From sequence record PP291582.1: a DNA stretch of 44,773 bases; one strand, 5' to 3'. Positions 1,615 through 6,469 of the stretch are shown here, piece by piece. Made by a program: the position numbers and the translations under genes. The stretch's first letter is position 1. Every line of letters begins with the position of its first letter. Under the pieces are notes generated by a model. That model was not told the DNA's origin, ran no database searches, and saw only the letters and a program-made list of their open reading frames with translations. This DNA comes from Escherichia phage vB_EcoS_UTEC10.

Positions 1615-1697
1615 TAAAACTGGAGAGTAGAGGGATGGAACAGGAGGTGATTTAAGTATCGTCGGATTAGTCTCAGGTGTCAATTGGTAAAATAAAA

Positions 1698-1846: not shown

Positions 1847-2347
1847 TCATTTAACAGCCCTCCCAATAGCCTCAGCCTCTTGCCACGGTTTACCGTCGAA
1901 CAGTGCAAGCCGTCCGGCGGTACGGCGGCGCAGGCCGAGTAACGGTTTACCGTTCTGGTTGATGAACAGCGCCAGCTTAGCCTGCAGCGTCGCAATATCT
2001 CCCCGCCGTAGCGCCTTACCTGTGCCTGTAGTAGCGGCAATCACACCTGCTCCGGCGTTATACACCAGGTCACACACCGCGTCAAACTGAGCCTGTGTCA
2101 GTGAATGGTGTGCTGCTGCGTCAACCGCAGCTACGGCCTTAGCCATATCGCGATTCAGTAACAGGAGGCCTTGTCCGGGGGTGATGGTCTTACCAGGTGT
2201 TACGTCAGGCCCGTAGTGACCATAGCCAATAGTAAGGTACTTCTCGTTCGGCGTAGCACGATACGCAGTTCCGCGGAATCCCTCGAACGCGGCAGTGAAA
2301 TGCAACCCATTATCTGAAATATTTCGAGACACGCTTATGTCCTCCAT
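1847..2347 (-). CDS. endolysin, T4-type lysozyme fold (GH24-like)
   Basis: FEGFRGTAYRATPNEKYLTIGYGH matches the catalytic Glu-Asp-Thr region of T4-type lysozymes; start uncertain (ATG 2347 or TTG 2383). Confidence 0.8.
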   Translation of the reverse strand: MEDISVSRNISDNGLHFTAAFEGFRGTAYRATPNEKYLTIGYGHYGPDVTPGKTITPGQGLLLLNRDMAKAVAAVDAAAHHSLTQAQFDAVCDLVYNAGAGVIAATTGTGKALRRGDIATLQAKLALFINQNGKPLLGLRRRTAGRLALFDGKPWQEAEAIGRAVK

Positions 2348-2582
2348 ACGACAGCCACGCCTGACGAATCTGACGCAGCGCAACTAATGTGATTAATGTC
2401 TCCGGCAACGTCGGGGACATGCTGCCCTGTAACAGGTGGATGCATCCGGCGACGCAGACGATAGCGGTCAGGATATAGAGCACCCGACCAAACAGCCCGT
2501 CGTCCACGCTGGGGTGGTACACATTAAACAGCGATGTGCCCCCGATTGCCAGCATACCGCCGAACCAGAATAGTTCATTCAT
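2310..2582 (-). CDS. two-TM membrane protein, holin/antiholin-like
   Basis: Internal ATG at 2582 with GAGGAGG RBS; 90 aa with two hydrophobic helices; sits between holin and endolysin. Confidence 0.45.
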   Translation of the reverse strand: MNELFWFGGMLAIGGTSLFNVYHPSVDDGLFGRVLYILTAIVCVAGCIHLLQGSMSPTLPETLITLVALRQIRQAWLSYGGHKRVSKYFR

Positions 2583-2883
2583 CTGTGCCTCCTCGACGTG
2601 CGATGTATTCTCCGGCGACGATACCAGAGAGACGGGAATAGATAGGCATCCAGAGAATGGCGATAATGAAGCCCAACCCGGCGATTTCACGGTCGCCCGT
2701 GATTCCAAACCATTGAGCTGCGAGAGGCGCGCCAAATACTGCGCAAGTGAAGCCGGTTGCAATAAAGCAGAAGCCGTCGATAGGGCCGGAAATAGCGGAC
2801 TTATGTTGTCGTAGTCCTATTACCCCTCCGGCTAGCGCGGCAGCGAGAAGCCACCCCGTCACTGTTTCAGTAAATTTATCCAA
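2575..2883 (-). CDS. holin (three predicted TM helices)
   Basis: 102 aa, three hydrophobic segments, charged C-terminus; TTG start with GGAGGA RBS; immediately upstream of the lysis genes. Confidence 0.55.
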   Translation of the reverse strand: MDKFTETVTGWLLAAALAGGVIGLRQHKSAISGPIDGFCFIATGFTCAVFGAPLAAQWFGITGDREIAGLGFIIAILWMPIYSRLSGIVAGEYIARRGGTDE

Positions 2884-2942
2884 GATGAATCCTCCAGGTG
2901 CGTATTAAGTATGCAGTAACTGGAGGATACCACGGGTAGGAA

Positions 2943-3383
2943 TTATCCTAATAGTTGTTTGGTAATAATCTTGCCGCCGGTGTTAACGTCGAACTTCGAT
3001 GCAACGGCTACGCCGCCATGCGCCGAATACCCACATTCCATAGCCGCTAATGCATATGGCGAGCCGGACCCAACGGCGGCAAAGCTGTCCGCAACCGTAA
3101 TAACCGAACTTAGTGCACAATCCCATGATTTATAGAACGCGACTTTGTACACCTTTTCTGTGTCTTTCACGAACACCAGGGCTTCGAAATCGAAGTCATA
3201 ATGTCTTGCCTGAAGGATATAAGGGTTGTCTATAAGCATAGTGCCAACTCCGGCATCACCCGCCACACCGATAATATAAGTATCATTCTCGTATATCTTT
3301 GTGTCAGTGTTGTAGCAGTTACTTCCGCACACAACGCGGGTATCACAGGCCATGGTCTTTCCATCGAATGCAATAGTAGTCAT
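2943..3383 (-). CDS. HslV/proteasome beta-subunit-like Ntn-hydrolase peptidase
   Basis: N-terminal MTTIAF (Thr nucleophile after Met), YIIGVAGDAGVGT and GSGSPYA motifs parallel HslV TTIVSV / VIAGFAGGTADA / GSGGPYA. Confidence 0.55.
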   Translation of the reverse strand: MTTIAFDGKTMACDTRVVCGSNCYNTDTKIYENDTYIIGVAGDAGVGTMLIDNPYILQARHYDFDFEALVFVKDTEKVYKVAFYKSWDCALSSVITVADSFAAVGSGSPYALAAMECGYSAHGGVAVASKFDVNTGGKIITKQLLG

Positions 3384-3673
3384 TTATGTCTCCAGATGTA
3401 TTGTCGTCTCTGCGGTTTCGTTGGAATATCATCGTACCCCCGCGATTTCCAGTAATTAAATAGCCGATTAGCGATAGCGGCGCGTTCCTGTGTTTTAAAC
3501 TCACCGAGATTCACGGCCTTCCCGTTCTGGAATCCGCAGGCGCGGACAGCTTTGCGTCTGGCCTGAATCTCTGGGTACAGCGCGTTACGGCGGCGCTTGT
3601 ATATCTGTATTTTAGCTCTCGGCGACAGCGGCGCGAGGCCGCTTCGTTTCAGGATGTCAGTTGCAAGAGACAT
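3380..3673 (-). CDS. hypothetical basic protein
   Basis: 97 aa track ORF, ATG start, ATGA overlap with the downstream gene. Confidence 0.5.
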   Translation of the reverse strand: MSLATDILKRSGLAPLSPRAKIQIYKRRRNALYPEIQARRKAVRACGFQNGKAVNLGEFKTQERAAIANRLFNYWKSRGYDDIPTKPQRRQYIWRHK

Positions 3674-3901
3674 TTATTGCCTCTCTATTTTAAAATGATA
3701 CATAATTCCGGATAACGCACCGATAGCCGTGTTGACATTGAAGTCTTTAATGTCGCAGAGGTTTCTAAGATACCGAACAGCATCAGCGAGTTCCGCGAAG
3801 TCTTCGTAACGTACCCAATCACCTTCGTCACTCTTAACCAGGTCGTTATACGGGTCGTATGGGTATTCACTAACATCTTTAAGCTCGTATCTCTGTACCA
3901 T
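3674..3901 (-). CDS. hypothetical protein, paralog A of a tandem pair
   Basis: Internal ATG at 3901 (MVQRYELKD...); shares VQRYE...LVKSDEGDW.YED with the upstream gene. Confidence 0.45.
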   Translation of the reverse strand: MVQRYELKDVSEYPYDPYNDLVKSDEGDWVRYEDFAELADAVRYLRNLCDIKDFNVNTAIGALSGIMYHFKIERQ

Positions 3902-4188
3902 CACTCCACCCCTTCCACATGTGTAACAGACCCGCAGTTCGCGCACTCGACGTAATCCGGGAACTGGTCTTTGTATTTCTGTAACTCGGCGTTTACTTCT
4001 GCCAGTCTTGACACAAGCCCCTCTATTTCCATATCCGTAGTGGTTATGTAGTCCTGGAAACTGTCGTCCAGTTCCTTGTAATCTTCGTAACTTATCCAGT
4101 CGCCTTCGTCACTCTTAACCAGCTCATGATACGGGTGGCACGAGTTAACACACACAGCTCTAAACTCATATCTCTGTACCACAATCAC
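3901..4188 (-). CDS. hypothetical protein, paralog B of a tandem pair
   Basis: 95 aa; N-terminal 40 aa paralogous to 3674..3901; C-terminus has a CxxC pair; GTG start overlapping the upstream stop. Confidence 0.45.
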   Translation of the reverse strand: MIVVQRYEFRAVCVNSCHPYHELVKSDEGDWISYEDYKELDDSFQDYITTTDMEIEGLVSRLAEVNAELQKYKDQFPDYVECANCGSVTHVEGVE

Positions 4189-5766: not shown

Positions 5767-6033
5767 TCACCCCATCTTCTCTTTAACGTGCACCCAAAAC
5801 TCACCACAGTACCAGCACCACATAAGATTAGGCGTCTCGCGCACCCAACCGTAATCCTTGCGGGCACGAATCGGGATAATACCCTTAGTGAAATAATAAC
5901 CTGTTCGCAGAAACTCAGGGTCGCGAGTCGCAGTGCGCCACATGTTATAAAACTGCTCCAGCCCGGAACCCCGGCGCATGACCCGTATTTTATGGTTATA
6001 TTCCGCTACTGTTTTCAGTTCAGTGTTATTCAT
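5767..6033 (-). CDS. hypothetical protein
   Basis: 88 aa track ORF; ATG start; ATGA overlap with the upstream gene stop. Confidence 0.5.
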   Translation of the reverse strand: MNNTELKTVAEYNHKIRVMRRGSGLEQFYNMWRTATRDPEFLRTGYYFTKGIIPIRARKDYGWVRETPNLMWCWYCGEFWVHVKEKMG

Positions 6034-6284
6034 TTACGGCAACCTCCCTCAGAGTCGTCGGCACGGGCATCATGATTCGATGCCGTTGTGAATGATGCGG
6101 AAGCAACATCGAAGAAACTAACGGTTAAAGTCTCGCCCACAGCGTCCTCTAAATCCCATTCATCACCGTCTTCATCTAAAACGTATCGACGGCCGTCGTA
6201 ATATACTCCCGACGAATACTTGTTACCTTTTACAAACCAATGCTGCACATCTGGACCAGATTCAATACAAATTAATTCTCCCAT
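6030..6284 (-). CDS. hypothetical protein
   Basis: Track ORF 6030..6287 (GTG); ATG at 6284. Confidence 0.45.
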   Translation of the reverse strand: MGELICIESGPDVQHWFVKGNKYSSGVYYDGRRYVLDEDGDEWDLEDAVGETLTVSFFDVASASFTTASNHDARADDSEGGCRK

Positions 6285-6469
6285 CACTTCGCCCCTTTGA
6301 ATTTAAAATTGTTGCCGATGAGTGTTAAATCACATTTACGGAGCAGTCCCTTACCAAACCCAGCTACGCTATTAACCTCAACAAAACCGAACCACATTAG
6401 CTTCGACTCTATTACAGTGAATAAATCGCCGCTAAATTTATCCCTAACCAACTGACCTTTCTTAAACAT
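6284..6469 (-). CDS. hypothetical protein
   Basis: Track ORF 6284..6478 (GTG); ATG at 6469 with AAGGGGTGAGG RBS. Confidence 0.45.
   Translation of the reverse strand: MFKKGQLVRDKFSGDLFTVIESKLMWFGFVEVNSVAGFGKGLLRKCDLTLIGNNFKFKGAK

What the first reader, a model, noticed from the sequence alone, without database searches (positions are those of the whole stretch)
2943..3383. Phage-encoded HslV / proteasome beta-subunit-like peptidase without an HslU partner
The 146-aa protein begins MTTIAF, placing Thr at position 1 after Met removal, and carries GxAGDAGxGT and GSGSPYA motifs that parallel the catalytic architecture of HslV. No AAA+ HslU-like gene is present in the window, so it may use host HslU or act alone. 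Its position next to the lysis cassette and early genes suggests a host-takeover or regulatory proteolysis role.
Basis: partly seen in the sequence, partly recalled or inferred. Interest (0 to 1): 0.6.

Follow-up and report, generated by a model that had tools for sequence, protein, structure and literature searches.

The report
Phage mini-proteasome homolog (PPH family)
The gene is real and encodes a compact proteasome-like threonine peptidase of the phage family PPH, described bioinformatically in 2021; it is not a true HslV, about 70% of sister phages lack it, and its substrate is still unknown.

Summary
Window 2943..3383 (minus strand) encodes a 146-aa protein starting MTTIAF with the quoted motifs. 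The window, a near-complete Kagunavirus (Guernseyvirinae) genome, has no HslU/Clp-type AAA+ gene.

Homology to peptidase family T1 is solid:
- PHROG 1040 'peptidase HslV family', E 3.6e-34.
- AlphaFold model pLDDT 92.

All catalytic positions are conserved: Thr2, Asp14, Lys29, Gly42, Ser106 and Asp132-x-x-Thr-Gly-Gly.

It is not an HslV orthologue. It scores 16.6 bits against an NCBIfam HslV cut-off of 157.75, and it lacks helix H2. [quoted passage not shown]

New here:
- PPH is a clean ~425-bp presence/absence polymorphism in Kagunavirus. Of 115 non-Salmonella records that carry the neighbouring holin, 35 carry the PPH gene.
- In other phages it sits in the neck module.
- In Acetobacteraceae it is a solitary chromosomal gene.

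It is most likely an accessory, self-contained, HslU-independent peptidase. Function is unknown. Known kind, modest interest.

The parts
2943..3383 (-). PPH gene: 146-aa compact proteasome-like (MEROPS T1) Ntn hydrolase, stop codon included
3378..3380 (-). Thr2 codon: predicted N-terminal nucleophile after removal of Met1
   Evidence: Coordinates. T2 conserved in >=90% of 134 diverse family members and in 116 of 118 close homologues. 118 of 146 representatives begin MTTI/MTTV/MTTL
3342..3344 (-). Asp14 codon, equivalent to proteasome/HslV Asp17
   Evidence: >=90% conserved; aligned to the Asp of GDGQ in HslV and of DSR in beta5
3297..3299 (-). Lys29 codon, equivalent to Lys33
   Evidence: Invariant in 134 diverse and 118 close sequences; aligned to HslV Lys33
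3240..3269 (-). GVAGDAGVGT motif (residues 39-48) containing Gly42, equivalent to oxyanion-hole Gly47, followed by the short helix H1
   Evidence: G42 >=90% conserved; helix 44-52/54-58 in the model
3051..3071 (-). GSGSPYA motif (residues 105-111); Ser106 is equivalent to Ser129, and the motif starts helix H3
   Evidence: G105 and G107 invariant, S106 >=90%; aligned to GSGGPYA of HslV and GSGS.YA of beta5
2973..2990 (-). D132-V-N-T135-G-G137: proteasome-type Asp166-x-x-Ser169-Gly-Gly motif
   Evidence: D132 and G136 >=90% conserved; aligned to DsYSGG of beta5. HslV has C-I-Y-T-N-H at this place
3384..3399 (-). Translation initiation region: GGAG (3393..3390) 6 nt before the ATG. ATGA overlap with the stop of the upstream gene (3380..3383), suggesting translational coupling
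   Evidence: Sequence read directly
3380..3673 (-). Upstream neighbour: 97-aa basic protein of unknown function (phrog_9632). It is retained in phages that lack PPH
   Evidence: phrog_9632 E 1.5e-54; no Pfam or PADLOC hit; present in K1G as gp47 directly before the holins
2955..3379 (.). The ~425-bp segment that is cleanly absent from K1G and most other Kagunavirus records (PPH indel)
   Evidence: Pairwise alignment with K1G; record spans of ~940 bp against ~1360 bp in the query; 35 against 115 non-Salmonella records
2884..2942 (-). Intergenic region between PPH and the holin: conserved hairpin AUCCUCCAG/CUGGAGGAU that pairs the holin Shine-Dalgarno (context, not part of the enzyme)
   Evidence: 100% identical to K1G; MFE -23.6 kcal/mol, z -3.27, 0 of 200 shuffles
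1847..2883 (-). Downstream lysis cassette: holin 2575..2883 (TTG start), holin 2310..2582, endolysin within 1847..2383 (context)
   Evidence: phrog_2359 E 1.1e-29, phrog_2508 E 2e-33, endolysin phrog_33703/phrog_7

Best explanation
[quoted passage not shown] PPH proteins are stripped-down proteasome-beta/HslV/BPH-like N-terminal-nucleophile hydrolases of about 145 residues.

Shown: the fold, the full set of family-T1 catalytic residues, the loss of helix H2, the lack of any phage-encoded unfoldase, and the fact that the gene is dispensable within the genus.

Inferred mechanism:
1. Host methionine aminopeptidase removes Met1, as it does for E. coli HslV, which also starts MTTI.
2. Thr2 then becomes residue 1. 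Its free alpha-amino group and hydroxyl act as base and nucleophile, with Asp14/Lys29 as the triad partners, Gly42 as the oxyanion hole, and Ser106/Asp132/Thr135 holding the site together.
3. The subunits probably assemble into rings, using the retained beta-sandwich and helices H3/H4.
4. The enzyme acts on its own, without HslU or ATP, on peptides or on a limited set of loosely folded host or phage proteins in the infected cell.

Biologically it is an accessory gene that is useful only in some hosts or conditions. It is not a core lysis, replication or morphogenesis function. The substrate is unknown.
For: Family and fold:
- phrog_1040 E 3.6e-34; Pfam Proteasome just above its cut-off.
- AF2 model pLDDT 92.3, pTM 0.87, with helices only at 44-58 (H1), 108-116 (H3) and 121-131 (H4).

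Active site:
- K29, G105 and G107 are invariant. T2, D14, G42, S106, D132 and G136 are >=90% conserved across 134 sequences that are only about 35% identical to one another.
- The same residues are kept in 118 close homologues.
- dN/dS is 0.22 against a sister phage.

PPH definition: ~140 residues, lacks H2, no propeptide, Caudovirales-borne, radiating from BPH (PMC8665760).

Autonomy:
- No unfoldase in the window.
- The gene is solitary among ordinary metabolic genes, with varying neighbours, in Acetobacteraceae chromosomes.
- No gene is consistently adjacent across 80 viral loci.
- BPH, the closest solved relative, has lost the HslU-interface residues and did not pull down HslU (PMC5777263).
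- HslV residues ~60-95 (helix H2, carrying R86/R89/K90) have no counterpart in this protein.

Accessory status: the holin gene is found in 115 non-Salmonella records but the PPH gene in only 35. K1G shows a clean deletion.
Against: - No biochemical data exist for any PPH. None was found in the held library.
- BPH was catalytically inert in standard peptide and casein assays, so an intact active site does not guarantee general protease activity.
- All identified phage hosts are Proteobacteria, which as a rule possess HslU. The distribution therefore cannot exclude use of the host ATPase.
- The oligomeric state could not be modelled with the tools at hand.
Confidence: 0.72

Rival explanations
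1. It is a phage HslV that docks onto the host's HslU hexamer and works as an ATP-dependent HslUV-type protease with altered specificity.
For: - hhalign probability 97.6% to E. coli HslV.
- The N-terminus MTTI is identical to that of E. coli HslV.
- All known hosts are Proteobacteria.
- Database names say 'ATP-dependent protease'.
Against: - NCBIfam HslV equivalogs score 16.6 and 15.6 bits against cut-offs of 157.75 and 137.
- Helix H2 is missing, and with it the Arg86/Arg89/Lys90 cluster whose mutation cripples HslV and which rearranges on HslU binding.
- HslV Lys28 aligns with a non-conserved Asn25. From memory of the HslUV structures, Lys28 binds the HslU C-terminus; treat this as a lead only.
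- The nearest solved relative, BPH, is HslU-independent.
Confidence: 0.13
2. It is a morphogenetic protease, or a virion-associated one, that processes a head, neck or scaffold protein.
For: - In 17 of 80 environmental viral loci the gene directly follows the head-tail adaptor Ad1 (phrog_477, 10 loci) or phrog_14539 (7 loci). It precedes head-closure, neck and tail-terminator genes. Across all members of these two gene clusters the median gap to the PPH gene is 1-3 nt.
- The same position is seen in a Yersinia massiliensis prophage.
- These phages and the window share portal, scaffold, Ad1, Neck1 and tail-terminator families and have no canonical prohead protease.
Against: - About 70% of Kagunavirus records have the same structural genes but no PPH.
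- In Guernseyvirinae the gene lies outside the structural module.
- Solitary copies sit among metabolic genes in bacterial chromosomes.
- Portal-MuF-scaffold-capsid modules of this type are not known to need a protease (SPP1/P22-type assembly, established knowledge).
Confidence: 0.06
3. It is not a general protease. It could be a sequence-specific transpeptidase or ligase like connectase. It could also be a non-catalytic decoy that poisons host HslV rings or titrates HslU.
For: - BPH is inert on standard substrates.
- Phages often encode inhibitors of host proteases (general knowledge).
Against: - Near-invariant conservation of every catalytic residue over more than 1,500 clusters argues against a decoy.
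- There is no S3/S4 insertion like the connectase lid.
Confidence: 0.07

Closest known systems
[quoted passage not shown]
   Same: - About 140 residues.
- Conserved beta-sandwich with Thr1/Asp17/Lys33/Gly47.
- Helix H2 missing.
- No propeptide.
- Carried by tailed phages and prophages of Proteobacteria.
- Nearest to BPH.
All of these features were reproduced here independently.
   Different: Nothing found that conflicts with the published description.

- The indel status within Kagunavirus.
- The neck-module position in other siphophages.
- Solitary chromosomal copies in Acetobacteraceae. The paper named only Pseudoalteromonas and Mesorhizobium as non-phage contexts.
- A much larger family: 1,516 clusters at 50% identity with E <= 1e-3, against 324 nr90 sequences in the paper.
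BPH, bacterial (Betaproteobacteria) proteasome homologue, PDB 5OVS/5OVU
   Same: - Met-Thr start without a propeptide.
- No partner ATPase known.
   Different: BPH is about 185-200 aa. It keeps H2 and has a long acidic pore loop after it, and it forms heptameric double rings. The window protein has neither H2 nor that loop.
HslV (ClpQ), the peptidase of the HslUV protease, MEROPS T1B
   Same: - Same MTTI N-terminus.
- Same GSG(G/S)PYA motif.
- Same Asp17/Lys33 spacing.
   Different: - About 30 residues shorter.
- H2 and its basic cluster are absent.
- D-x-x-T-G-G where HslV has C-I-Y-T-N-H.
- Fails the HslV equivalog models.
- No linked hslU.
20S proteasome beta5-type subunits
   Same: The best sequence-profile match covers the whole length, including Thr1 and the Asp166-x-x-Ser169-Gly-Gly motif (E 7e-12).
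   Different: No propeptide, no H2, no C-terminal S12/H5, no alpha-ring partner; the protein is about 55 residues shorter.

Membership tests
MEROPS T1 / proteasome-like Ntn hydrolases (Pfam PF00227) | Ntn-hydrolase beta-sandwich flanked by helices | tested here: met
   [not shown]
MEROPS T1 / proteasome-like Ntn hydrolases (Pfam PF00227) | Thr (or Ser) that becomes residue 1 of the mature chain | tested here: met
   M-T-T start with no alternative upstream start; conserved family-wide. Actual Met removal is not testable here
MEROPS T1 / proteasome-like Ntn hydrolases (Pfam PF00227) | Asp17, Lys33, Gly47, Ser129, Asp166 and Ser/Thr169 equivalents | tested here: met
   D14, K29, G42, S106, D132, T135
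MEROPS T1 / proteasome-like Ntn hydrolases (Pfam PF00227) | Score above the curated Pfam gathering threshold | tested here: met
   22.9 bits against 22.4, so marginal for the single sequence. The family profile reaches E 7e-12 against PDB T1 chains
MEROPS T1 / proteasome-like Ntn hydrolases (Pfam PF00227) | Peptide-bond hydrolysis through Thr1 | not testable with these tools
   Needs enzyme assays and inhibitor labelling
HslV (NCBIfam TIGR03692 / NF003964) | Score above the equivalog cut-off | tested here: not met
   16.6 against 157.75 bits and 15.6 against 137 bits
HslV (NCBIfam TIGR03692 / NF003964) | Both helices H1 and H2, with the Arg86/Arg89/Lys90 cluster at the pore | tested here: not met
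   No helix between residues 59 and 107 of the model; HslV ~60-95 is unmatched in hhalign; the role of the cluster is taken from PMC5777263
HslV (NCBIfam TIGR03692 / NF003964) | Genetic linkage to hslU | tested here: not met
   No Clp/Hsp100-type AAA+ in the window or in the sister genome
HslV (NCBIfam TIGR03692 / NF003964) | Activation by HslU and ATP | not testable with these tools
   Biochemical
PPH (Fuchs et al. 2021) | About 140 residues, no propeptide, no C-terminal extension | tested here: met
   146 aa. The relatives listed from the exhaustive search are mostly 135-160 aa and align from residue 1
PPH (Fuchs et al. 2021) | Lacks helix H2 but keeps H1, H3 and H4 | tested here: met
   DSSP of the model: helices 44-52/54-58, 108-116 and 121-131 only; definition read
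PPH (Fuchs et al. 2021) | Encoded by tailed phages and prophages | tested here: met
   342 phage records; 352 viral-contig relatives for one subfamily pattern; prophage contexts in Yersinia, Pantoea and Morganella
PPH (Fuchs et al. 2021) | Closest characterised relative is BPH (group I) | tested here: met
   [not shown]
PPH (Fuchs et al. 2021) | Clusters by sequence with the published representative WP_042125023.1 | not tested
   The sequence was not retrievable; a cluster look-up of ten consensus-like members returned no accession numbers
BPH | H2 followed by a long acidic pore loop; heptameric double ring | tested here: not met
   No H2 or pore loop in the model; the oligomer is not testable here
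Phage prohead (head maturation) proteases | Assemblin-like or ClpP-like serine protease fold, with the gene between portal and capsid genes | tested here: not met
   The fold is Ntn/T1. The gene lies next to the holins here, and after Ad1 elsewhere

The most novel reading that the evidence does not exclude
PPH is a free-standing, ATP-independent viral 'mini-proteasome' (or connectase-like enzyme) with a specific target. That target could be a host defence or stress protein, or a regulator of lysis timing. Its repeated loss and retention within Kagunavirus would then reflect selection by different E. coli hosts. If so, it would be the first functionally defined viral member of the proteasome family, with a natural plus/minus phage panel already available for testing.
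Probability: 0.2. Interest if true: 0.65.

Novelty: already known. Interest (0 to 1): 0.3.

Why it matters
In practice, the label 'HslV family peptidase / ATP-dependent protease' that annotation pipelines attach to this gene overstates what is known. It is a PPH-type proteasome homologue lacking the helix that carries the HslU-responsive basic cluster of HslV, and no ATPase partner is evident.

Scientifically, no PPH has been characterised. The family is large: 1,516 clusters at 50% identity in the exhaustive search. It occurs in many phages of enterobacteria, including phages considered for therapy.

The clean presence/absence polymorphism in otherwise syntenic Kagunavirus genomes offers a simple route to a phenotype. 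Beyond that, the finding is ordinary and was already published as a family in 2021.

Tried and rejected
**Literature**
- Searches for phage HslV found no functional study.
- PMC12345140 looked promising but concerns a T7-like kinase and only mentions host hslV.
- One badly framed search returned unrelated protease papers.
- Two jumbo-phage papers merely note an HslV gene without HslU.

**Searches that failed or gave nothing**
- The search for related loci with the broad alignment A1 failed for lack of a conserved stretch. Narrower alignments A2 and A3 worked, but they sample subfamilies only.
- PADLOC gave no hit, so there is no link to known defence systems.
- Pfam gave nothing for the small upstream genes.
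- The cluster look-up for the published PPH accession found no accession numbers, and the paper's supplement held nothing useful.

**Ideas considered and dropped**
- A conserved partner gene. None recurs next to PPH across the 80 viral loci or the 44 genomic loci. The largest 'neighbour' cluster (69 loci) was judged from its coordinates and strand to be a spurious antisense ORF inside the PPH gene itself.
- A morphogenetic role, considered because of the neck-module position. It was down-weighted after the Kagunavirus indel was found.

- The model's coordinates are not exposed, so active-site geometry and ring interfaces could not be measured.
- Multimer prediction was not possible with the tools.

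Full report
**Observation**

The minus-strand ORF 2943..3383 encodes 146 residues: MTTIAFDGKTMACDTRVVCGSNCYNTDTKIYENDTYIIGVAGDAGVGTML...AAVGSGSPYALAAMECGYSAHGGVAVASKFDVNTGGKIITKQLLG. Its ATG is the first start codon after the preceding stop. A GGAG lies 6 nt upstream, and the ATG overlaps the stop of the upstream gene as ATGA.

**What the window is**

The region is 83-95% identical to Escherichia phages of the genus Kagunavirus (Guernseyvirinae); the nearest is phage CR01. The window is essentially one whole phage genome. Gene order matches the annotated sister genome PQ423993: small genes, this gene, two holins, endolysin, small genes, terminase, portal, head, neck, tail, and a divergent replication arm.

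Downstream neighbours:

| Gene | Coordinates | PHROG | E-value |
|---|---|---|---|
| Holin | 2575..2883 | phrog_2359 | 1.1e-29 |
| Holin | 2310..2582 | phrog_2508 | 2e-33 |
| Endolysin | within 1847..2383 | phrog_33703 / phrog_7 | 2.7e-47 / 2.2e-40 |

All.

The ten largest plausible proteins were scanned against Pfam. The only AAA-type domain is AAA_25, in the primase-helicase. No HslU/Clp-type unfoldase is encoded, and the sister genome lists none either.

**Homology and fold**

- The protein matches phrog_1040, 'peptidase HslV family', at E 3.6e-34.
- It just passes the Pfam Proteasome threshold, 22.9 against 22.4 bits.
- An exhaustive phmmer search of 1.84 billion representatives found 1,516 clusters at E <= 1e-3. 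The 150 best hits listed are mostly 135-160 residues long, start MTT(I/V), and align from residue 1.

An alignment of 134 of these sequences, about 35% identical to the query, shows:
- K29, G105, G107 and A111 invariant.
- T2, D14, G42, S106, D132 and G136 conserved in at least 90%.

Aligned to proteasome beta5 and HslV, these residues are Thr1, Asp17, Lys33, Gly47, Ser129-Gly130 and Asp166-x-x-Ser169-Gly-Gly.

With this alignment AlphaFold2 gives a confident model, pLDDT 92.3 and pTM 0.87. Structural matches:

| Method | Target | Score |
|---|---|---|
| Foldseek | BPH | TM 0.76 |

**Not an HslV**

Four results separate it from HslV proper.
1. The NCBIfam HslV equivalogs score 16.6 and 15.6 bits against cut-offs of 157.75 and 137.
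2. The family profile is equidistant from beta5 (7e-12), HslV (9e-12) and BPH (5.5e-11).
3. The model has helices only at 44-58, 108-116 and 121-131. According to the BPH structure paper, Arg86/Arg89/Lys90 lie at the pore entrance of HslV, their mutation severely reduces activity, and HslU binding remodels this region. The same paper reports that BPH has lost the HslU-interface residues and did not pull down HslU (PMC5777263).
4. The C-terminal D-x-x-T-G-G motif is of the proteasome type, where HslV has C-I-Y-T-N-H.

**What it is called**

[quoted passage not shown] Its features are: about 140 residues; found in Caudovirales and their hosts; part of group I radiating from BPH; no propeptide; and, together with its relative RPC, the only homologue that lacks helix H2. 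[quoted passage not shown] Every one of these features was reproduced here independently. I therefore file the protein as a PPH. One reservation remains: the published representative sequence could not be retrieved for a direct comparison.

GenBank records of sister phages already label the gene 'peptidase HslV family', 'protease' or 'ATP-dependent protease'. Two jumbo-phage papers had noted an HslV gene without HslU. No experimental study of a PPH was found in the held library.

**Context: what it says about function**

*Within Guernseyvirinae.* In Salmonella and Pseudomonas Jerseyvirus records the gene holds the same place, directly upstream of holin-holin-endolysin.

*Within Kagunavirus it is optional.* The adjacent holin gene is found in 115 non-Salmonella records, but the PPH gene in only 35.
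- In K1G, K1H, K1ind1, K1ind3, Golestan, Bas76 and many others, the match to this region spans ~940 bp instead of ~1,360 bp.
- The alignment with K1G shows a clean gap of about 425 bp (window 2955-3379). The flanks are identical, and K1G retains the last 12 nt of the PPH reading frame: TTATTAAGATAA on the coding strand, against CTATTAGGATAA here. This looks like a deletion scar (inference).
- PPH-minus phages with 92-93% flank identity are interleaved with PPH-plus phages at 83-87%. Loss or exchange therefore happened more than once (inference).
- The gene is nevertheless under purifying selection where present: dN/dS is 0.13/0.60 against PQ423993, and the catalytic residues are kept in 118 close homologues.

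*In 80 environmental viral contigs of another PPH subfamily.*
- 46 have structural genes within 6 kb.
- In 17, the gene directly follows the head-tail adaptor Ad1 (phrog_477) or phrog_14539. Across all members of these two gene clusters the median gap to the PPH gene is 1-3 nt.
- Head-closure, neck and tail-terminator genes follow.
- A Yersinia massiliensis prophage shows the same order.

*Elsewhere.*
- In a Klebsiella Jedunavirus it sits in a small opposite-strand island inside the tail module.
- In an Aeromonas phage it carries a 120-residue C-terminal extension.
- In Acetobacteraceae/Roseomonas-type and other alphaproteobacterial genomes (Acetobacteraceae/Roseomonas titles in about 20 of the 44 genomic loci) it is a solitary gene with host-like GC3. 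In the six loci examined its neighbours are glycosyltransferase, TctC, dehydrogenase, ferredoxin, aldolase, pirin, GatCA or PyrB genes, and they differ from genome to genome.

*Summary.* No gene accompanies PPH consistently. There is no PADLOC hit.

**Best explanation**

The protein is an accessory, self-contained PPH-type threonine peptidase. Host methionine aminopeptidase should expose Thr2, because Thr is a permitted penultimate residue and E. coli HslV matures the same way (established knowledge). The Thr/Asp/Lys triad, the Gly42 oxyanion hole and the Ser106/Asp132/Thr135 support network are all in place. Helices H3/H4, which mediate ring-ring contacts in the family, are retained, so ring assembly is plausible. 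The face that in HslV meets HslU is stripped of H2, so ATPase-independent action is more likely than HslU docking. These last steps are inferred, not shown.

The variety of genomic positions, the stand-alone cellular copies and the indel in Kagunavirus argue for a conditional fitness function rather than a core role in lysis or assembly.

Caveats:
- BPH, the nearest solved relative, was inert in standard assays.
- All known hosts possess HslU as a rule.
- Oligomers could not be modelled.

**Rivals**

| Rival | Weight |
|---|---|
| HslU-dependent phage HslV | 0.13 |
| Morphogenetic protease | 0.06 |
| Connectase-like ligase or non-catalytic decoy | 0.07 |

Evidence and refutation tests for each are in the structured fields.

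**Verdict**

'HslV' is too specific, and the proposed role is unsupported. The family is already described and the gene already annotated, so this is not new. What remains open is the function of PPH in general. For that question the natural plus/minus polymorphism documented here is a convenient starting point.

Noticed in passing
window 2884-2942 (minus strand), between the PPH stop and the holin TTG start at 2883: This intergenic stretch is 100% identical to phage K1G, although the region as a whole is about 85% identical. It folds into a 9-bp hairpin, AUCCUCCAG/CUGGAGGAU, that pairs the holin Shine-Dalgarno GGAGG (MFE -23.6 kcal/mol, z -3.27, 0 of 200 shuffles). It may be a translational control of holin synthesis.
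   Followed up: partly
L128 (Salmonella phage ST521_1PISJ) 3979-4015: In Jerseyvirus the same PPH-holin gap instead holds a hairpin followed by a T-run (CTCCGAA...TTCGGAG ATTTTTTTATT) immediately before the holin GTG. This is terminator-like, but the scanner did not flag it; I estimate the hairpin loop at about 12 nt, above the scanner's 8-nt limit. It would place PPH at the end of the upstream transcription unit.
   Followed up: partly
window 1655-1683 (minus strand); L128 5057-5149: A sigma70-like TTGACA-17-GATACT lies just downstream of the endolysin in both genera. In Jerseyvirus a strong terminator follows it. It may be a late promoter/terminator pair ahead of the small genes and the terminase.
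   Followed up: no
window 2955-3379 compared with L130 (K1G) 940-960: PPH is a clean ~425-bp indel within Kagunavirus. It is present in 35 of 115 non-Salmonella records that carry the neighbouring holin. K1G keeps the last 12 nt of the PPH frame as an apparent deletion scar.
   Followed up: yes
window 3674-3946 and 3901-4188 (minus strand): Two adjacent, overlapping small ORFs are paralogues. Both carry VQRYE...PY..LVKSDEGDW..YED. Neither has a Pfam hit.
   Followed up: no
L002-L081 (viral contigs), e.g. L007 2715-3649; L108 5517-6775 (Yersinia massiliensis): In another PPH subfamily the gene sits in the neck module, directly after the head-tail adaptor Ad1 (phrog_477) or phrog_14539 and before head-closure, Neck1 and tail-terminator genes.
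   Followed up: partly
L087, L092, L095, L101-L104 (Acetobacteraceae/Roseomonas-type and other alphaproteobacterial genomes), match at about 6001-6417: Here PPH is a solitary gene with host-like GC3. It lies among ordinary metabolic genes (GT4, TctC, SDR, Fer2, aldolase, pirin, GatCA, PyrB) that differ between genomes. This non-phage context goes beyond the Pseudoalteromonas and Mesorhizobium cases named in the 2021 paper.
   Followed up: partly
L083 4001-4831 (Aeromonas phage vB_AceP_PAc): This 276-aa homologue is a PPH core plus a ~120-residue C-terminal extension. It covers the whole phrog_1040 profile and probably corresponds to the 'RPC' type. There is only a sub-threshold Rho_N-like hint in the tail.
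   Followed up: no
L084 and L085 (genome contigs): A 'Bacillota' MAG contig and a Taishania (Flavobacteriia) scaffold encode proteins 87% and 59% identical to the window protein. These look like Guernseyvirinae phage contigs binned or assembled with unrelated genomes, not evidence for those hosts.
   Followed up: no
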